In this document: positions 5,693 through 16,455 of the stretch, one piece after another
How positions within the stretch are numbered: the first letter of the stretch is position 1
Layout of the letters: the number at the start of each line of letters is the position of its first letter
Source of the DNA: a virus
Lineage: Duplodnaviria; Heunggongvirae; Uroviricota; Caudoviricetes
Virus record (IMG/VR): IMGVR_UViG_3300042934_000306
Direction: 5' to 3' (one strand)
Length of the DNA: 17,540 bases
Position numbers and translations under genes: made by a program
The notes under the pieces: generated by a model
What the model was told of the DNA's origin: nothing
Database searches by the model: none
Seen by the model: the letters and a program-made list of their open reading frames with translations, nothing else

Positions 5693-5718
5693 GAAGCCCG
5701 CTCAACCAAGCGGGCTTC
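5693..5718 (-). terminator. intrinsic terminator: perfect 10-bp stem GAAGCCCGCT/AGCGGGCTTC, 6-nt loop, between convergent doc and the minus-strand operon
   Basis: On the minus strand the hairpin is followed directly by TTTTC; it lies 7 nt after the stop of the 5725..6819 gene. Confidence 0.55.
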
Positions 5719-5724
5719 CTACTA

Positions 5725-6819
5725 TCACTCAATGATTTTTTCTGCTGTCAGCCAGCTAATTTCTTGCCTGTCTTTCGGCGGTTTTAGCATGTGGGCGTAT
5801 TCAGCGACATTCCCCCACGGAATTGTTTTTGCCCACTCAACGATAGCATTGTGATCTGCAGTGAAGAGTGGAATGGTGTGCGATTTCAACCACTCTAATG
5901 TTGTAACGCCATGTTTTTTGGCGTGGTGCTGTGCATGATGCTTGGCTATCACTCGTAATGGCATTGTCCATTCACTGCCATCAGGCATTGAAAAACGCAT
6001 TGTTTTCGGCATATCTGATTCAAGAACAGCCTCCCTAATACCAGGGAACTCACCAAGAATCATACGACGGTAGTCATCACTATTTCGCCCGCCATACCTT
6101 TCGGCAAAATGATCAAGATATTCTTGGGTAATAAATGGTGAATCCTCAGCACTCAGCTTAATGGCTTTATAGACACCACTCGGATTATCTTCAGCTAAAG
6201 CACGCCCATGATGAGAATCATAGAAAAATCCTATTTCCTCTGGTGACGGAATTGAAGTGAGCAATATGCGTGAATCACCACTAGTCATGCTTGCCCACAC
6301 AATACTGTATGCCCGATCGCTTATATGTGCGGAATCCACAATAATGAATAACAGATGGTCGGCGTAGTGACCTGCAATGCTATCTTCATAGTTAAGGCGG
6401 TAGTTACAAAAGCACATTCCCCAAAATTCATTGAACATCAGACCGCTATCACCGACCTTAAAATACTCAATGATAAAAGGTTGTTTTTTCAGTAATGCCT
6501 CCCAACATTGCCACACATATGCAACAATTCCTTTTTTGCAAGCATTTGATTTTGGATAAACAATTACTGTCCGGGAATCAGGATACATAATCGTATAAAG
6601 GGTACTAATAACAGCAAGCACTTGCGGTCGTCCGATCCCATGCGGAGTTGTGACAGTAGCTTTTGCATTATTGGGCTGTATAGCTTCAACAATTTGTTGT
6701 TGCTGGTGGCTTAAATCAATATCAAACAATTCTTTTGCTGCCAGAACCCAATTGTCTTTATATTTCTCCACCAGCGACAGCCAGCGCGGATCTTTATAAA
6801 TATTGCTCTTAGTCGCCAT
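5725..6819 (-). CDS. terminase-large-subunit (PacB-like) paralog, ATPase motifs degenerate, nuclease domain absent (365 aa)
   Basis: Start taken at ATG 6819 (MATKSNIYKDPRW...) after AAGGAAGTGG, overlapping the upstream stop. Aligns by eye to the 502-aa PacB-like protein in this window (SHQQQQI, FYDSHH, ESPF-T, GEFP blocks); Walker A is PHGIGRP rather than GHGTGKS, Walker B is IIVDSA rather than LILDEA. Confidence 0.65.
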   Translation of the reverse strand: MATKSNIYKDPRWLSLVEKYKDNWVLAAKELFDIDLSHQQQQIVEAIQPNNAKATVTTPHGIGRPQVLAVISTLYTIMYPDSRTVIVYPKSNACKKGIVAYVWQCWEALLKKQPFIIEYFKVGDSGLMFNEFWGMCFCNYRLNYEDSIAGHYADHLLFIIVDSAHISDRAYSIVWASMTSGDSRILLTSIPSPEEIGFFYDSHHGRALAEDNPSGVYKAIKLSAEDSPFITQEYLDHFAERYGGRNSDDYRRMILGEFPGIREAVLESDMPKTMRFSMPDGSEWTMPLRVIAKHHAQHHAKKHGVTTLEWLKSHTIPLFTADHNAIVEWAKTIPWGNVAEYAHMLKPPKDRQEISWLTAEKIIE

Positions 6820-7576
6820 CTGCCACTTCCTTAACTTCTTCTTTGGCCTGCTCTGCAATCGCCGCACGGCATTTGGCCCTTGCTGTAGCGATTGCTTCAG
6901 CACGCACATCATCAGGAATCGTTGACGTGATATACATATCCAGTTCTTCGGCGCGGAACACTGTTTGGTCCAGATATTCGCGTAGCATCCAGGTAAATTC
7001 GAAATCACACGCGATAATCTCTGCGCTACCCTCTGCACCATTTGGGAAATGAATAAATGCCTGTTTAGCCAAACCGATAACACGACATGCGGTTGCCAAA
7101 ACAGCGACAACCAGGTTTACATTTTCACACGCTACGGGCTGATTAACACCGGAGATTACTCCATTTAACTGTCGGTTATATGGAAGGTAGTTTGAGATGC
7201 GTTCTACGCGCCATGTGCCAGTCAGGCTGCCATTTTTAAAGATAATTGGTGTAACGGATAGCCCAAGCTCGCGTATAAGTCGTTGCGCTATAGCAGGATC
7301 ATTAAACAGGTCTAATGCTACACATTCGAAAGACTGTGCAAGGGCAAACAGTTCTTCCAGAGAGTAGTCTTTGCCCCTGGCGGTGATGTAACGACGAACG
7401 CCGCTGTCTGCATCACTCCATATAGCTACGCCATGCTCTTCATTCAGCTCTTCATTAAAGCCGAGATACGTCATGATAGTGCGTTCAATCGTGTCAAACG
7501 GCAGTGACATGTCGGCGTTAACAGCCACCAGCAGGCCATTACGCAAGCGGTATTGAATTGTTTTGGTGCTTTCCAT
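6809..7576 (-). CDS. hypothetical protein (255 aa), translationally coupled to the terminase paralog
   Basis: GGAG upstream of ATG 7576; its stop TAA sits inside ATGGCGACTAA, the start of the next gene; acidic C-terminal tail; no recognised motif. Confidence 0.55.
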   Translation of the reverse strand: MESTKTIQYRLRNGLLVAVNADMSLPFDTIERTIMTYLGFNEELNEEHGVAIWSDADSGVRRYITARGKDYSLEELFALAQSFECVALDLFNDPAIAQRLIRELGLSVTPIIFKNGSLTGTWRVERISNYLPYNRQLNGVISGVNQPVACENVNLVVAVLATACRVIGLAKQAFIHFPNGAEGSAEIIACDFEFTWMLREYLDQTVFRAEELDMYITSTIPDDVRAEAIATARAKCRAAIAEQAKEEVKEVADGD

Positions 7577-7582
7577 GTCAAA

Positions 7583-8233
7583 TCACTCCACTACAAACCA
7601 GTCACAAGCCAGTAAATCATCAACATACGGCAACCAAACGCTGTCCATATTTTGTGCATCTTTCAATACGAAATGGTCACCATAAGGAACCTGAATGTCG
7701 TGTAAATTGACGCTCCCAGCGAGAACTAACCAGCAGAATTGCTTTTCGCCTTTCCACTCGCGTCGAGCTACATTTTTTCCTTCTTTCAGCCACATTAGCG
7801 CATCAGAAAAGTCGGCTGCTTCAAGGTCGATTTCCTCTTGCTGGGTAGTGGTACCACCAGCAGAAATAGTTACACTCCCGGTAATATTAATCATCACGCC
7901 GTTGTCATCCGTAATGATGACCGTGGTTCCATTTTCGGAGGCGTCGTTAACCAGGCCATAGCATTCCTCAAATGGTTTCTCCGGGGCATAGAACAGATAA
8001 CCGTTTTCATAAACGATCAGATACCCGCCAGTTTTTGGTCGGTGTTTTTGTAAAAACATTGCGTCAACACAAACTGTTGCCCCTTTTGGTTCAACGAGTT
8101 CAATGCAGCCCCAAAGTGGGGCATCAGTTACTCCGAAAATAACAACATTTTTGATTTTCGATGCACTAACGTTTTTGTGAGCTTTGTATTTGGGAAGGAA
8201 CTTAAAAAGCTCTTTCGTTGCCATGTAATTCAT
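7583..8233 (-). CDS. two-domain protein (216 aa): unknown N-terminal domain fused to a DUF2829/Tad2-like C-terminal domain
   Basis: AGGAAAGG SD before ATG 8233; C-terminal FSDALMWLKEGKNVARREW ... LPYVDDLLACDWFVVE fits the signature I associate with DUF2829; not verified by HMM. Confidence 0.5.
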   Translation of the reverse strand: MNYMATKELFKFLPKYKAHKNVSASKIKNVVIFGVTDAPLWGCIELVEPKGATVCVDAMFLQKHRPKTGGYLIVYENGYLFYAPEKPFEECYGLVNDASENGTTVIITDDNGVMINITGSVTISAGGTTTQQEEIDLEAADFSDALMWLKEGKNVARREWKGEKQFCWLVLAGSVNLHDIQVPYGDHFVLKDAQNMDSVWLPYVDDLLACDWFVVE

Positions 8234-8247
8234 AGCCTTTCCTCTGC

Positions 8248-8742
8248 TTAAAACTTTGCGTACTGAAGCGGTGTGCGCTTGATTTCAAAGTGGTCTTCCG
8301 ATGTGCTACCAAAGCCACCAGCACCACGTTCCGTTTCGTTGAGTTCCTCAACCTCGACTAGTGAGACTTGTTCAACACGCTCAAAAATGCCTTGCATGAC
8401 AGCCATTCCAGGCTTGAGACAAACGCCTTCCCCGCCGGGATCAGTAATCAGTTTTGCCATGATTTCACCGCGATAATCTGAGTCGATAATTCCTACGCAG
8501 TTAGCCAGGCGAGTATGTTTTTTGCAGCCCAATCCGGAGCGCGGATAGAGTTTCAGACACCAGCCGGGCGGGATCTCCATAGCCAGTCCGGTGTACACCC
8601 ACCAGCTTGAGGAAATTGCACCATTGCTATCGACGCATGGTTTTATTTCAACAGCCTCAAAATCCATCGCCGCCGATCCGGAGGTGGCATAAGCTGGAAG
8701 TTTTGCTGCCGGATGTAGGCGTTTCACTTTTACGTAAATCAT
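8248..8742 (-). CDS. dut: dUTPase (trimeric Dut family) with an insertion between motifs I and II
   Basis: All five Dut motifs readable: YATSGSAAMD, PRSGLG, GIIDSDYRGE, AVMQGIF, RGAGGFGSTS; ATGA coupling to the upstream gene. Confidence 0.85.
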   Translation of the reverse strand: MIYVKVKRLHPAAKLPAYATSGSAAMDFEAVEIKPCVDSNGAISSSWWVYTGLAMEIPPGWCLKLYPRSGLGCKKHTRLANCVGIIDSDYRGEIMAKLITDPGGEGVCLKPGMAVMQGIFERVEQVSLVEVEELNETERGAGGFGSTSEDHFEIKRTPLQYAKF

Positions 8743-9215
8743 TGTTTTTTAGCTCTCTGCGTGAAGGTGTAAACCCGACGTTTGATATGTGGAACGGTAG
8801 GAACAGGAAGACAGGAACTTTCAATAACTCCTTGCTCCTCCAGCGATCGCACCGCCCGCAAGAACTGCGACGTGTCGCCGCCAAACTGGCGGGCATAGGT
8901 GCTGCCGTTATGAAGTATTTGAGCTATTACCCGAGCTTTTGTCTGGCTGTCACGATATGCGAATAGCCGCACGGCCTCTTCTGGCGCAATCGCTAACTGA
9001 TAGCCTTTCCCGGCACGGTGTCGAATGAATCCATGCGCCAGTAGGTTTTTGAGTTCGTTACGAGTGCGAACAGTTCCGTAATCCAGGAAGTGTGGATTGA
9101 TAACGACTGGCTTAAACCATTCCGTAGGTGCTTTAGCTAATAGAGCTAACAGCTTCCCGGATAATTCTGGATAGGAAGACGGGTAACAATTCAGAGATGG
9201 GTAATAAGTTTTCAC
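8739..9215 (-). CDS. hypothetical protein (158 aa)
   Basis: GTG start at 9215 after a GGGGG SD-like run, overlapping the upstream stop (GTGA); no motif recognised. Confidence 0.5.
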   Translation of the reverse strand: MKTYYPSLNCYPSSYPELSGKLLALLAKAPTEWFKPVVINPHFLDYGTVRTRNELKNLLAHGFIRHRAGKGYQLAIAPEEAVRLFAYRDSQTKARVIAQILHNGSTYARQFGGDTSQFLRAVRSLEEQGVIESSCLPVPTVPHIKRRVYTFTQRAKKQ

Positions 9216-9556
9216 CGACGCCCCCTTGCAGGATATCGACCTGCATTAGTATCCGGTGCAATAAAGCCGGTAGTGGGGCGAGTGAAAGCGAGATTAATCT
9301 TCTCGACCATAGTGCGATAATTTTCCTGATAGTGGGCCAGGAGTTTTTCGGCGGCAATGATGGTTACTTTCCGGACGTAGCTTTCTGCTTCCGCCAGATT
9401 TCGCCAGTTTTTTTCGAGGGTAAACACAGGGACGGCCTCAAGCCCGGTCATGATGCCGAACACAACGACAGCATGACTGTTCTTAACACCAGCGGCGAAG
9501 GTTACGGTGTAACCTTCCACCTTGAAGCGTCTTGATTCCGTGATTTGACTCTGCAA
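9212..9556 (-). CDS. hypothetical protein (114 aa), first gene of the minus-strand operon, TTG start
   Basis: TTG at 9556 preceded by TAGGAGGGTG (strong SD, 5-nt spacing); 73-bp AT-rich gap after the recombinase stop. Confidence 0.5.
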   Translation of the reverse strand: MQSQITESRRFKVEGYTVTFAAGVKNSHAVVVFGIMTGLEAVPVFTLEKNWRNLAEAESYVRKVTIIAAEKLLAHYQENYRTMVEKINLAFTRPTTGFIAPDTNAGRYPARGRR

Positions 9557-9629: not shown

Positions 9630-10658
9630 TTATAAATCCATCAGGCGGCTATTAGCCCCCACAGACACGCCGCCACGGCGAAGATACCGCATAAGTGTTT
9701 CCGGTTTCTTCCAGGTTCCTTCCTGCATGATCTCCACCATAGACACCTGCTTTTCAGCCATATCAATAGCGGCCCCGACGCGTGCACTATGCCCGGTCCA
9801 CGTCCGGTATCTTCCTTTGTTTGGCGTAGCATCTCTTTTATTCAGCAACACCCAGGCGTCGCTGAATATTTTCTCCATTGCAGGTGCAGTAAGGGGCGTT
9901 GTCGTGAGCCTGGCCTTATTGCTACGGTGTATCGGCGGGAACAGCACTGCGTCAGGATGTTCGCGAAGCCCTGAAACATCCAGCCAGTCATTCAGCACAG
10001 CGGTAGTGCGACGGGAAAGCACCTTATCAAGCCCGGCGGCGGTCGTTATTGTCTTCGTGTGTGAAATATGTAGCGTGACAGTGTCACCTGTTTGGTCCAG
10101 ATCTCCTACACGAATACGCGATATTTCCGACATACGCATCAGCGTATTGTATGCAACAAAGAGAAAAGCCCGGTTGCGCAGGTCCACCAGCCGTTCTGAC
10201 CTGGACAGCAGGACGTCGAGCAGTTTCAGATCGTCCCACCGCAGCGGTATAGCCTGGCCTGTTCGTTCGCCTTTTTCAGTTGCCGCTTCGCGCCGGATGC
10301 GCCGCATAGCCAGAGAAACACTTTTATCATCCGAAAGTGGTGGAAGGCCACAATGCGAAAGCAGCATGTTCAGCATGGCGTAGTGCTTATCAATGGTGGT
10401 CGAAGCCAGATCAGCATCATGCAGCTGAAGAAAATACTCGCGGGCCATCTCTGGTGAGATCGGGAACCAGGCGAGCTGGCGAGCGTGACACCATCTCGCC
10501 CAAGAGTGAAACACTAACCGGAGATCGCGCAAAGTATTCGGCGCGTAAGCCCCCTGGTCATTCATGAACCGCATAAAGTTTTCTGCGGCCTCCTGGTACT
10601 CTTTGCCAATGTTGCGCAGAAAACCACCGGAACTGCCAGAGATAATTAATTCACTCAT
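9630..10658 (-). CDS. dre: Cre-family tyrosine site-specific recombinase (Dre-like)
   Basis: 342 aa; aligns to P1 Cre across its length at roughly 45-50 percent identity by eye (AYNTLMRMSEISRIRVGDL, HSARVGAA, TWTGHSARVGAAIDMA blocks); adjacent rox-like site. Confidence 0.8.
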   Translation of the reverse strand: MSELIISGSSGGFLRNIGKEYQEAAENFMRFMNDQGAYAPNTLRDLRLVFHSWARWCHARQLAWFPISPEMAREYFLQLHDADLASTTIDKHYAMLNMLLSHCGLPPLSDDKSVSLAMRRIRREAATEKGERTGQAIPLRWDDLKLLDVLLSRSERLVDLRNRAFLFVAYNTLMRMSEISRIRVGDLDQTGDTVTLHISHTKTITTAAGLDKVLSRRTTAVLNDWLDVSGLREHPDAVLFPPIHRSNKARLTTTPLTAPAMEKIFSDAWVLLNKRDATPNKGRYRTWTGHSARVGAAIDMAEKQVSMVEIMQEGTWKKPETLMRYLRRGGVSVGANSRLMDL

Positions 10659-10810
10659 GAAACTATTTGACCTCTATATACAGATGACGCTACGCGAAAA
10701 ATATAAAAATGACAGGGTAGCTATAAGTTAATTTTCAAAATACAAGCCTTTGATTCGAGGCACGTATTTTCAGTGATGTCAACACTGTTCATCTACACAT
10801 GATTATAGCC

Positions 10811-10842
10811 TAACTTTAAATAATGCCAATTATTTAAAGTTA
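10811..10842. other. rox-type recombination site: TAACTTTAAATAAT-GCCA-ATTATTTAAAGTTA (perfect 14-bp inverted repeats, 4-bp asymmetric spacer)
   Basis: Read directly; lies 153 bp upstream of the recombinase start; identical to the rox sequence as I recall it from phage D6. Confidence 0.8.
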
Positions 10843-15487: not shown

Positions 15488-15880
15488 CTACCAGCGAGAC
15501 AAACGAACAACATGTTTCACTTTTGCGATCCACTTTCCGCGATAACTATTGATTACGGCCTGTGCCAGCTTCAAATTGGCTTCAAAATCAGCCTTACTAC
15601 CATCAGACTCCACCAGCATTCCTCCATCTATTTCTGGTAAACATAGATAATCCTGCTCAACCTGCAGCGGCATTGATGGCTCTCTGAATGGCGTTACTTG
15701 CTCTGCTTTCCAGCGAAATCTAACCCTCATCCCCCTGGTGGTCATTACTAGATAGCCTGTTATAGTGCTTTTATGGCCCACATCAGTACGCGTGGCATTG
15801 CATGACACGATCTTACAGTTAGCGATAGACCACTCCATATTGGTGGCCTGTTGAGTGCTTAATTTGGTAGTCCCGTACAT
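15488..15880 (-). CDS. hypothetical protein (130 aa)
   Basis: GGGAGG SD 7 nt before ATG 15880; ATGA overlap with the upstream gene. Confidence 0.5.
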   Translation of the reverse strand: MYGTTKLSTQQATNMEWSIANCKIVSCNATRTDVGHKSTITGYLVMTTRGMRVRFRWKAEQVTPFREPSMPLQVEQDYLCLPEIDGGMLVESDGSKADFEANLKLAQAVINSYRGKWIAKVKHVVRLSRW

Positions 15881-16455
15881 CAGAAAGCCTCCCAGTCAGT
15901 CGCGATTATATCCACACCAGTTGCAAACCAGTCTGTCTGCGCCTGTAAATCACCATTCATCATTACCAGGCGAGGCATCACCATCACATCGCACCCTTCC
16001 ACAATATCGAATGCCTCTTCCGGCAAGAATTCGAAGAGCTTTTCTTTGCTGCCAATGCTGCCACGGAACATCGATATATAGCTCCCTTTAGGCCATGATG
16101 TCCGCCGGGCATCAAGCCCTTTCATCATCCAGTAAAAAGCCGAGGAAAAAGGGATATTCTTTTTGCCAATGATTACATTATTCGCTTCTGTGTACTTCAG
16201 GAACTTAACTAACCTTACCATTGACTCGGATAACGCAACGTATGGCTCATGATTGATTGCTGACACGCTTACACCGTGCAATCCAACGCTTACCACTGTC
16301 ATATCGCCGCTCTGTGCGGTTTCGATATTGACGCCTTTGCGAACTAATGAGGCGTAAAGTTCCTCTCGCTTTTGGGTCCAGCGTTCCCGCTTCCCTATGA
16401 AGTCACTCAAAATGAGATCTTCTTCTGCATATGCGTTATCGTTCGCCATTAACAT
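15880..16455 (-). CDS. hypothetical protein (191 aa) with DUF2829/Tad2-like C-terminal signature
   Basis: GGAGA SD 5 nt before ATG 16455; C-terminal AFYWMMKGLDARRTSWPKG ... DWFATGVDIIATDWEAF parallels the C-terminus of the 216-aa protein at 7583..8233. Confidence 0.5.
   Translation of the reverse strand: MLMANDNAYAEEDLILSDFIGKRERWTQKREELYASLVRKGVNIETAQSGDMTVVSVGLHGVSVSAINHEPYVALSESMVRLVKFLKYTEANNVIIGKKNIPFSSAFYWMMKGLDARRTSWPKGSYISMFRGSIGSKEKLFEFLPEEAFDIVEGCDVMVMPRLVMMNGDLQAQTDWFATGVDIIATDWEAF

What the first reader, a model, noticed from the sequence alone, without database searches (positions are those of the whole stretch)
7583..8233. Fusion protein with a DUF2829/Tad2-like C-terminal domain, inside the operon with dUTPase
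Residues about 140-216 carry the pattern A-L-x-W-L-K-E-G-K-x-V-x-R-R-E-W ... D-L-L-A-x-D-W that I associate with DUF2829, the family of the anti-Thoeris sponge Tad2. Here it is fused to a 140-aa N-terminal domain of unknown function, which may be a sponge with altered ligand range or an effector-tethered sensor.
Basis: partly seen in the sequence, partly recalled or inferred. Interest (0 to 1): 0.6.

Follow-up and report, generated by a model that had tools for sequence, protein, structure and literature searches.

The report
Dec-like OB domain fused to Tad2
A gene of a D6-like phage-plasmid of E. coli joins a domain related to a capsid decoration protein to a Tad2-type "sponge" domain that phages use to soak up bacterial alarm molecules. 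The same front domain sits ahead of several unrelated sponge families, so it may be an overlooked part of phage counter-immunity.

Summary
The ORF lies on the minus strand (8233 to 7583, 216 aa). Residues 141-215 match Pfam PF11195 (Tad2-like; E 9.6e-17) and are predicted to fold like solved Tad2 structures. The gene follows dut in a tightly packed seven-gene minus-strand cluster that starts with cre. The window is a D6-like phage-plasmid.

The "unknown" N-terminal 140 residues have two parts. The first is an OB-fold domain homologous to the phage L decoration protein Dec and to the N-domain of the recently described RyR Tad sponge. The second is a Thr/Gly-rich stretch resembling the start of the Dec spike. 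The OB domain belongs to a large family of small phage proteins. That family is fused N-terminally to Tad2, Sequestin, Acb4, Acb2/Tad1 and RyR Tad sponges.

The Tad2 module here is a divergent allele. The W-N-G asparagine is lysine (K161), the alpha2 loop is deleted, and one nucleotide found only in this window gives S203Y in the pocket.

Best reading: a modular cytoplasmic immune-signal sponge with an altered or uncertain ligand. The OB domain's role is unknown. RefSeq already annotates the Tad2 domain; the OB-domain links are the new part.

The parts
7583..8233 (-). Whole ORF, 216 aa: OB domain, spike-like linker and Tad2-like domain
   Evidence: Annotated 'DUF2829 domain-containing protein' (WP_001108662.1, differs by S203Y) in NZ_AP018804.1
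7943..8206 (-). N-terminal OB-fold domain (about residues 10-97). Conserved residues are H19, K20, A24, I27, H64, P66, G69, G70, Y71, Y75, G78, Y79, P84, F88, E89, Y92
7838..7936 (-). Thr/Gly/Ser-rich beta-type linker (residues 100-132, ENGTTVIITDDNGVMINITGSVTISAGGTTTQQ), with a rough 8-residue period
   Evidence: Low pLDDT in the monomer model. The BLASTP alignment to Dec runs on to Dec residue 118, pairing INITGSVTISA with ITLTGAVTGSA. Two exchangeable alleles exist, TTVIITDD and VSLSIEGH
7814..7837 (-). Invariant junction EEIDLEAA (residues 133-140) leading into Tad2 helix alpha1. It is the apparent recombination joint between modules
   Evidence: Invariant or nearly invariant columns across 45 homologs with different N-terminal parts
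7589..7813 (-). Tad2-like (DUF2829) domain, residues 141-215, short 'EWKGEK' allele
7751..7753 (-). Codon for K161, at the position of the W-N-G asparagine (SPO1 N26, HgmTad2 N22)
   Evidence: Alignments. Every other homolog classified with a Tad2 motif has W-N-G/A, apart from one outlier (P0095) with W-P. The roles of N26 and N22 come from bioRxiv 10.1101/2023.05.01.538930 and 10.1101/2023.11.15.567273
7625..7627 (-). Codon for Y203. Window base 7626 is T where the nearest public plasmid has G (Ser). This is the position of SPO1 S76 and HgmTad2 S90
8248..8742 (-). dUTPase gene immediately upstream in the same cluster
   Evidence: PF00692 E 1.7e-14, phrog_135
6809..7576 (-). isaA-like gene, 6 nt downstream. 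It is the conserved neighbour of this gene in D6-like and P1-like elements
   Evidence: phrog_2326. D6 orf113 is noted 'similar to P1 isaA'. SJ46 has the order ssb, J46_0048, isaA
5725..6819 (-). Last gene of the cluster: a degenerate paralog of the PacB (large terminase) ATPase domain
   Evidence: 38% id over 258 aa to the window's PacB. Walker A and Walker B motifs are altered
8739..9556 (-). Two overlapping genes of unknown function upstream of dut (8739-9215 and 9212-9556)
   Evidence: phrog_6669 and phrog_1968. They correspond to D6 orf116 and orf117
9630..10658 (-). cre-like tyrosine recombinase, first gene of the cluster
10802..10829 (-). Promoter-like site TTGGCA-16-TATAAT (11 of 12) upstream of cre
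   Evidence: This is a consensus match only, and the scan found fewer sites than in shuffled sequence
5696..5711 (-). Terminator-like hairpin just after the last gene
   Evidence: consensus match only

Best explanation
The gene encodes a modular, cytoplasmic anti-defence protein of a D6-like phage-plasmid. Its C-terminal module is a true member of the Tad2/DUF2829 family. By analogy with solved Tad2 proteins, it should assemble through helix alpha1 into an oligomer whose inter-subunit pockets hold a nucleotide-derived immune signal. That would stop a host signalling defence (Thoeris-type TIR systems are the most likely target; CBASS or Pycsar are possible) from switching on its effector. This allele keeps the two pocket tryptophans and the aspartate (W160, W200, D206). 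It replaces the diphosphate-contacting asparagine by lysine (K161), lacks the alpha2 insertion, and in this window carries S203Y. Its ligand is therefore probably not the canonical 3'cADPR, or binding may be weakened. The N-terminal OB domain is a 'head' module that phages repeatedly place in front of unrelated sponge domains. In the one relative studied experimentally (RyR Tad gp68) it forms a domain-swapped dimer and is dispensable for Thoeris inhibition. Its most likely role here is therefore oligomerisation or stabilisation, perhaps compensating for the lost alpha2 dimer interface. What is shown: domain identities, predicted folds, homologies, the fusion pattern, allele mosaicism and gene order. 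What is inferred: oligomeric state, ligand binding, target system, co-transcription with cre and dut, and the role of the OB domain.
For: Tad2 membership rests on (PF11195 E 9.6e-17; PDB Tad2 hits; predicted fold, TM 0.7-0.88). Pocket mapping comes, using residue roles from the papers read. The Tad2 family inhibits Thoeris I, II and IV, CBASS and Pycsar through two kinds of pocket. The OB domain is the N-terminal partner of sponges. Of the 145 best family representatives, 16 carry Tad2, 18 Sequestin (PF21825), 5 Acb4 (PF13876) and 1 the Acb2/Tad1 hairpin. PF21825 and PF13876 are experimentally verified sponges, and Sequestin was itself found through its fusions to known sponges. RyR Tad gp68 carries the same N-domain, and its properties are described. 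At one early locus, two sister Klebsiella phages carry OB+Tad2 (SopranoGao) or OB+Sequestin (LASTA). The three modules occur in all allele combinations in P1- and D6-like elements, as expected for arms-race genes. Natural variants that delete the OB core (D6 orf114) or replace it with Dut (P0064) keep the Tad2 module intact. The gene sits in an accessory cluster (cre, dut, isaA-like), not among structural genes.
Against: No binding or phage assay exists for this protein or its close relatives. K161 replaces a residue whose double mutation with the neighbouring Trp (W21A/N22A) greatly reduces gcADPR binding in HgmTad2. S203Y puts a bulky residue at a nearly invariant pocket position and was found in no public copy. 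Helix alpha2, part of the Tad2 dimer interface, is missing, so the canonical tetramer may not form. The Dec-like spike region suggests trimers, which do not fit a Tad2 tetramer. Only monomer models could be made. The promoter and terminator calls are consensus matches only.
Confidence: 0.55

Rival explanations
1. Two-sponge fusion. The OB domain is itself a ligand-binding anti-defence module, a new sponge family or an inhibitor of another immune step. The protein would then neutralise two signals or systems at once, as Acb4-Tad2 and Acb4-Sequestin fusions do.
For: The same 'fused to known sponges' logic led to Sequestin. Most family members are about 85-120 aa stand-alone proteins, 109 of the 145 best, which matches the size and organisation typical of sponges. 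Polar and aromatic residues are nearly invariant across the family (H19, K20, Y71, Y75, Y79, Y92; H64 in the wider set). The capsid protein Dec lacks the H-K pair. Tandem OB-OB proteins exist.
Confidence: 0.25
2. Virion protein. This would be a Dec-like capsid (or fibre) decoration protein whose OB domain binds the capsid, whose beta-rich stretch forms a trimeric spike, and whose distal knob has a Tad2-like fold.
For: Homology to Dec covers the OB fold and runs into the spike region. In Ralstonia phage GP4 a stand-alone OB gene lies between the portal and major head genes. Some records name relatives 'capsid decoration protein' or 'head-tail adaptor'. P0025 carries an N-terminal tail-fibre repeat.
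Against: The gene lies in the cre-dut accessory cluster, not in a structural module. In Lastavirus phages it is the second gene of an early operon beside the regulators. The GP4 capsid cryo-EM structure contains only gp2 and gp1. D6 deletes exactly the would-be capsid-binding OB core. The family's partners are cytoplasmic sponges, and the homologous domain of RyR Tad is part of a soluble dimer. A signal sponge on the outside of a capsid would have no access to its ligand.
Confidence: 0.1
3. Decaying or re-purposed copy. This allele, and especially this window's S203Y copy, no longer binds immune signals. It is either on its way to loss or has a different, non-sponge role.
For: K161, the alpha2 deletion and S203Y all affect ligand or interface positions. 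The locus is prone to damage: an in-frame deletion in D6, a Dut fusion, and an IS1 insertion in RCS47.
Against: The short allele is intact, common and nearly invariant in protein sequence across many plasmids; cluster P0001 alone holds 105 sequences. It always keeps W160, W200 and D206. A lysine can still contact phosphates. Tad2 relatives with changed pockets bind other signals rather than nothing.
Confidence: 0.15
4. A different activity once attached to DUF2829 proteins: anti-CRISPR (AcrIIA7) or a 'MW1434 family type I toxin', as one plasmid record names the gene.
For: Weak PDB hits to AcrIIA7 entries. One PLSDB record uses the toxin name.
Against: AcrIIA7 is HgmTad2, and its anti-Cas9 activity could not be reproduced. 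No NCBIfam model, including any toxin model, matches the protein.
Confidence: 0.03

Closest known systems
Tad2 of Bacillus phage SPO1 (gp34.65; PDB 8SME/8SMF) and MoTad2 (PDB 9EIB/8V3E)
   Same: Same Pfam family and predicted fold (alpha1 plus an antiparallel sheet). The pocket residues W25, W73 and D79 are conserved as W160, W200 and D206. Identity to MoTad2 is 35-37%.
   Different: Those proteins are ~90-aa stand-alone tetramers. Here the domain is the C-terminal third of a 216-aa protein. N26 is replaced by K161 and S76 by Y203, and the beta2-beta3 insertion with helix alpha2 is deleted.
HgmTad2 / AcrIIA7 (PDB 8KBI-8KBM) and SptTad2
   Same: Same family. They show that the variable beta2-beta3 insertion sets a second ligand specificity.
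   Different: They have a long insertion (residues 32-72) that forms a cyclic-dinucleotide pocket. This allele has the shortest insertion of the set compared, so that pocket is unlikely here.
Phage L capsid decoration protein Dec (PDB 6E3C)
   Different: Dec is a 134-aa virion protein encoded next to the terminase genes. It lacks the family's conserved H-K pair and has no Tad2 domain. Capsid binding is untested here and the context argues against it.
RyR Tad (gp68 of Pectobacterium phage vB_PatP_CB1; bioRxiv 10.64898/2026.06.04.730250)
   Same: Same architecture: this OB-type N-domain in front of a sponge domain (hhalign 96.1%, E 3e-9).
   Different: Its sponge domain is an all-helical RyR Repeat12-like fold, not Tad2. 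Its N-domain is a shortened version and lacks the spike-like linker.
Sponge-sponge fusions (Acb4-Tad2 of phage Pm86, Tad2-Sequestin, Acb4-Sequestin gp59 of Ab09)
   Same: One polypeptide combines Tad2 with a second small phage domain. Relatives of this protein include OB-Tad2-Sequestin triple fusions (P0107, P0191).
   Different: In those fusions both partners are verified sponges. The partner here has no demonstrated ligand.
Phage D6 orf114 (YP_009914791.1) and SJ46 J46_0048
   Same: Orthologous locus next to an isaA-like gene. J46_0048 is full length at 58% identity.
   Different: D6 orf114 is an in-frame deletion lacking the OB core and carries the canonical GWNGEN Tad2 allele.

Membership tests
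Tad2 / DUF2829 (PF11195) | Match to the family profile above the curated threshold | tested here: met
   61.7 bits against a cut-off of 25, E 9.6e-17, profile positions 2-73 of 73
Tad2 / DUF2829 (PF11195) | [quoted passage not shown] | tested here: met
   The AF2 model against the PDB finds 9eib, 8v3e and 8sme/f/g at E 2e-6 to 4e-5, TM(target) 0.7-0.88. This is a predicted structure, not a solved one
Tad2 / DUF2829 (PF11195) | Pocket tryptophans and aspartate (SPO1 W25, W73, D79) | tested here: met
   W160, W200 and D206 align with them
Tad2 / DUF2829 (PF11195) | W-N-G asparagine that contacts the ligand diphosphate (SPO1 N26, HgmTad2 N22) | tested here: not met
   Lysine (K161) in this allele only. 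The other homologs with a classified motif have W-N-G/A, except one outlier with W-P
Tad2 / DUF2829 (PF11195) | Serine of the W-x-P-S motif (SPO1 S76, HgmTad2 S90) | tested here: not met
   Tyr203, caused by window base 7626 T. All 18 other short-allele proteins and the nearest plasmid have Ser
Tad2 / DUF2829 (PF11195) | Homotetramer with pockets between protomers | not testable with these tools
   Only monomer prediction is available. Helix alpha2, part of the dimer interface, is deleted
Tad2 / DUF2829 (PF11195) | Sequesters an immune signal and relieves Thoeris, CBASS or Pycsar | not testable with these tools
   Needs binding and phage-challenge experiments
Phage L Dec-type decoration protein | Dec-type OB fold | tested here: met
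Phage L Dec-type decoration protein | C-terminal three-stranded spike that trimerises | tested here: inconclusive
   Sequence similarity continues to Dec residue 118, but the region has pLDDT below 55 in the monomer model
Phage L Dec-type decoration protein | Virion component encoded with head or packaging genes | tested here: not met
   The gene lies in the cre-dut-isaA accessory cluster. Capsid binding itself is not testable here
Sponge-associated OB 'head' domain (RyR Tad gp68 N-domain family; no Pfam entry) | Homology to the gp68 N-domain and to the stand-alone LPxYKCHKVVxAxKI...GGYxVxYEDGYxSYSPAxAFExGY proteins | tested here: met
   hhalign 96.1%, E 3e-9. The profile finds 2,814 cluster representatives at E<=1e-10. 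The conserved residues are retained
Sponge-associated OB 'head' domain (RyR Tad gp68 N-domain family; no Pfam entry) | Placed N-terminal to a sponge domain | tested here: met
   Architectures found are N-T, N-S, N-T-S and N-Acb4, and never the reverse order
Sponge-associated OB 'head' domain (RyR Tad gp68 N-domain family; no Pfam entry) | Domain-swapped dimer | not testable with these tools
   Reported for gp68 in the paper read
Lockin sponge family | Curved beta-rich protomer forming hexamers; reported absent from INPHARED phage genomes | tested here: not met
MW1434-type type I toxin (name used in one plasmid record) | Match to the NCBIfam model | tested here: not met
   No NCBIfam hit at E<=0.01

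The most novel reading that the evidence does not exclude
The OB 'head' domain would define a very large, unnamed family of phage counter-defence modules (thousands of sequence clusters, mostly ~90-aa stand-alone proteins). It would be evolutionarily related to the capsid decoration protein Dec and have its own molecular target. That target could be a second immune signal, or host systems that detect sponges. Proteins like this one would then be two-function immune evasion factors, and Dec would be a capsid-bound offshoot of an anti-defence fold, or the reverse.
Probability: 0.25. Interest if true: 0.75.

Novelty: new variant of a known kind. Interest (0 to 1): 0.5.

Why it matters
Tad2 sponges are an established way for phages to silence Thoeris, CBASS and Pycsar signalling. 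A Tad2-like domain in P1- and D6-like phage-plasmids of E. coli and Salmonella is already in public annotation. Three things are added here.

1. This allele changes the pocket and the dimer interface. It is therefore a natural test case for how Tad2 specificity evolves.

2. The partner domain is an OB fold shared with a capsid decoration protein. It precedes at least five unrelated sponge families. This points to an uncharacterised, very common phage module, and fusion to known sponges is the same kind of evidence that led to Sequestin.

3. The gene appears to be transcribed with cre. A phage-plasmid might then express a sponge while resident, which would affect how its host's signalling defences respond to other phages.

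All three points can be tested directly with existing assays.

Tried and rejected
- **Empty library searches.** NCBIfam found nothing for the target or five neighbouring genes. Pfam found nothing for the N-terminal part.
- **Weak Pfam hit.** The PF01132 EF-P match (E 0.059, below its cut-off) was ignored.
- **isaA-like and second Tad2-like proteins.** PDB sequence searches found nothing.
- **Is the OB domain Lockin?** Rejected, see the membership rows.
- **Giant proteins at the top of the OB-profile search (2,000-4,500 aa).** The one checked (P0097) is a cadherin/Big_9 repeat protein that shares only a GG..DGSYSYTPA..F.G hairpin motif. These hits are treated as false positives, so the count of 5,077 at E<=1e-3 is an overestimate.
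- **The single OB + Acb2/Tad1-hairpin fusion.** It was counted, but scanning 20 candidates did not identify it.
- **Source of the S203Y variant.** The T-variant 33-mer has no match in GTDB representative genomes or IMG/VR. The G-variant has 3 IMG/VR matches and none in the GTDB representatives.
- **Literature.** Supplementary tables of the Tad2 diversity paper are not held, so I could not check whether a close relative was tested. The D6 genome paper is not in the library. The D6-like prophage population paper does not mention this gene.
- **Not attempted.** dN/dS on the short allele, because there are too few substitutions.
- **Not possible.** Multimer structure prediction and pocket analysis. 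Model coordinates are not exposed.

Full report
**What the window is.** The 2.8 kb around the finding matches E. coli and Salmonella plasmids of about 92 kb (NZ_AP018804.1, NZ_CP067430.1, CP123702.1) with a single mismatch. It is about 97% identical to Escherichia phage D6. Of 235 matching PLSDB plasmids, 224 are typed non-mobilizable. The window also holds cre, phd/doc, a umuD-like gene and pacA/pacB. It is therefore a D6-like phage-plasmid. The gene or a relative occurs in 209 of 5,426 complete E. coli genomes, and 208 of the 215 matching places are on plasmids.

**Checking the observation.**
- The ORF is on the minus strand (8233 to 7583, 216 aa).
- The quoted motifs are at residues 145-160 and 206-212.
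- Pfam PF11195 (Tad2-like) matches residues 141-215 at E 9.6e-17, covering almost the whole profile.
- A sequence search of the PDB finds MoTad2, Tad2 and SPO1 gp34.65 (E 6.6e-9 to 6e-5).
- An AlphaFold2 model built on 45 homologs is confident for both globular parts. Its C-terminal part superposes on Tad2 crystal structures (Foldseek E about 1e-6, target TM 0.7-0.88).

RefSeq already names the protein 'DUF2829 domain-containing protein', and UniRef names a relative 'Thoeris anti-defense Tad2 family protein'. The Tad2 domain as such is not new.

**Gene context.** Seven minus-strand genes follow one another with overlaps or gaps of at most 73 nt:

| Gene | Coordinates |
|---|---|
| cre | 9630-10658 |
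| unknown function | 9212-9556 |
| unknown function | 8739-9215 |
| dut | 8248-8742 |
| the target | 7583-8233 |
| isaA-like | 6809-7576 |
| PacB paralog | 5725-6819 |

A near-consensus sigma-70-like site lies upstream of cre, and a hairpin plus T-run lies after the last gene. These are pattern matches only, so the single-operon reading is an inference. The pairing with an isaA-like gene is conserved in phage D6 and in the P1-like phage SJ46, where the order is ssb, gene, isaA, next to the dar region. In RCS47 the gene is split by IS1.

Residues 100-132 are Thr/Gly/Ser-rich with a rough eight-residue period, and they are poorly predicted in the monomer. In Dec the corresponding region forms the trimeric spike (abstracts). 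Whether it does so here is open.

**The OB domain belongs to a large family tied to sponges.** An exhaustive profile search found 2,814 cluster representatives at E<=1e-10. The figure of 5,077 at E<=1e-3 includes false positives from cadherin-like repeat proteins. The consensus is LPxYKCHKVVxAxKI...KHxPxxGGYxVxYEDGYxSYSPAxAFExGY.

The 145 best non-giant members break down as follows:
- 109 are stand-alone proteins, and 5 are tandem duplications.
- By my local models, 13 are OB-Tad2, 15 are OB-Sequestin and 3 are OB-Tad2-Sequestin.
- Pfam counts 16 with Tad2, 18 with PF21825, 5 with PF13876 and 1 with the Acb2/Tad1 hairpin.

PF21825 is the Sequestin sponge and PF13876 is the Acb4 sponge. Sequestin was itself discovered because it is fused to known sponges (Tal et al., PMC12265669).

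A 2026 preprint describes RyR Tad (gp68 of Pectobacterium phage CB1). [quoted passage not shown] I fetched gp68 and found that this N-domain belongs to the same family (hhalign 96.1%, E 3e-9). According to that paper, the N-domain alone has no activity against type I Thoeris and forms a domain-swapped dimer.

In two sister Klebsiella Lastavirus phages, the same early locus encodes OB+Tad2 (SopranoGao gp55) or OB+Sequestin (LASTA). In isolated phages a single-sequence tblastn finds the domain in 42 records. In Ralstonia phage GP4 it lies between the portal and head genes, but the GP4 capsid structure contains only gp2 and gp1.

**The Tad2 module is an unusual allele.** Among P1- and D6-like homologs there are three Tad2 alleles:
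- short: 82 aa from the junction, 'EWKGEK';
- medium: 91 aa, 'GWNGEN';
- long: 99 aa, 'GWNGEN'.

There are also two linker alleles and several OB alleles, found in all combinations. They are joined at an invariant EEIDLEAADFSDALMWLK segment. The window carries the short allele.

Aligned with SPO1 Tad2 and MoTad2, it keeps W160, W200 and D206 (SPO1 W25, W73, D79). The asparagine of W-N-G is K161. The stretch holding helix alpha2 is deleted. The published structures give these elements clear roles. N26/N22 contacts the ligand phosphates, and W21A/N22A greatly reduces gcADPR binding. Helix alpha2 is part of the dimer interface. The beta2-beta3 insertion builds the cyclic-dinucleotide pocket of HgmTad2. 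Tad2 relatives are known to have diversified to His-ADPR, N7-cADPR, cUMP/cCMP and cyclic dinucleotides. A changed specificity is therefore a reasonable reading, and a weakened pocket is the alternative.

The short allele occurs only together with the OB domain. All OB-less variants carry alpha2-containing alleles. This fits the idea that the OB part supplies an oligomerisation interface, but the sample is small.

**A change seen only in this window.** The window differs from the nearest plasmid by one base within the gene (7626, T instead of G), which gives S203Y. This serine is nearly invariant in the family. It corresponds to SPO1 S76 and HgmTad2 S90, both pocket residues. All 18 other short-allele proteins have Ser. 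The T-variant 33-mer was found in neither GTDB representative genomes nor IMG/VR, while the G-variant was found in three IMG/VR contigs. I cannot tell whether this is a real mutation or an error.

**Natural variants.** D6 orf114 is an in-frame deletion of the OB core (MNNMATKELFKFLPKYKAHK|KNGTTVIITDD...). P0064, found on four contigs, is an in-frame Dut-Tad2 fusion joined at GAGG|ITTQQ. Both keep the Tad2 module. This argues that the Tad2 module is the selected core and that the OB domain is dispensable in some backgrounds.

**Conclusion.** The best-supported explanation is a modular cytoplasmic immune-signal sponge whose ligand is uncertain, with an OB 'head' of unknown role that is probably oligomerising (confidence about 0.55). 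The rivals are:
- a two-sponge fusion (0.25; compatible with the main reading);
- a Dec-like virion protein (0.1);
- a decayed or re-purposed copy (0.15);
- older DUF2829 labels, anti-CRISPR or toxin (0.03).

The protein is a new variant of a known kind. The more interesting lead is the OB domain family itself.

**Numbering note.** Residue numbers here are for the 216-aa protein. Positions printed for alignment A1 are one lower because its first row lacks Met1.

Noticed in passing
window 5725-6819 (-): Last gene of the cluster. It is a 364-aa paralog of the ATPase domain of the window's own PacB large terminase (38% id over 258 aa). Walker A is degenerate (SGHGTGKSS becomes TPHGIGRPQ), Walker B is altered (LLILDEAS becomes LFIIVDSAH), and there is no nuclease domain. 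It is absent at this position in phage D6. It could be a decoy for terminase-sensing defences, but this was not tested.
   Followed up: partly
window 15880-16455 (-): A second Tad2-like protein in the same window: 191 aa, PF11195 E 1.1e-9 over residues 103-190, phrog_7362. It has an unrelated N-terminal 100 residues and SWPKG in place of GWNG.
   Followed up: partly
window 7626: The single base that differs from the nearest public plasmid within this gene (T vs G). It gives S203Y at a nearly invariant pocket position, and the variant was found in no searched collection.
   Followed up: yes
L001 6748-7188 (phage D6 orf114): The type phage D6 carries an in-frame deletion that removes the OB core but keeps the first 20 residues, the linker and a canonical Tad2 allele.
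   Followed up: yes
protein P0064 (E. coli, 241 aa, 4 contigs): An in-frame deletion fuses dUTPase directly to the linker end and the Tad2 domain (junction GAGG|ITTQQ). This creates a Dut-Tad2 protein.
   Followed up: partly
protein P0025 (E. coli, 306 aa): A relative with an N-terminal phage tail-fibre repeat (PF03406) replacing the first ~20 residues of the protein. It could be a real fusion or an assembly or annotation artefact; which one is not known.
   Followed up: no
L013 2995-3870 (Klebsiella phage LASTA) and L002 3986-4582 (SopranoGao): Sister phages carry OB+Sequestin and OB+Tad2 respectively at the same early locus. LASTA also has about 130 unassigned residues between the two domains.
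   Followed up: partly
FO818745.1 / NC_042128.1 (phage RCS47) around 15495-15950: The P1-like homolog is interrupted by IS1 next to isaA. The 'IS1-associated' gene names of P1-type phages may therefore mark the remains of this locus.
   Followed up: no
BFVD hit A0A384WK77 (Vibrio phage vB_VpaS_KF6, 394 aa): A protein annotated as a MazG pyrophosphatase gives a structural match to the OB domain model (E 1.5e-4). This may be another nucleotide-related fusion partner.
   Followed up: no
window 6809-7576 (-): The isaA-like gene is the conserved downstream neighbour in D6-like and P1-like elements. It has no Pfam, NCBIfam or PDB sequence match, and its function is unknown.
   Followed up: partly
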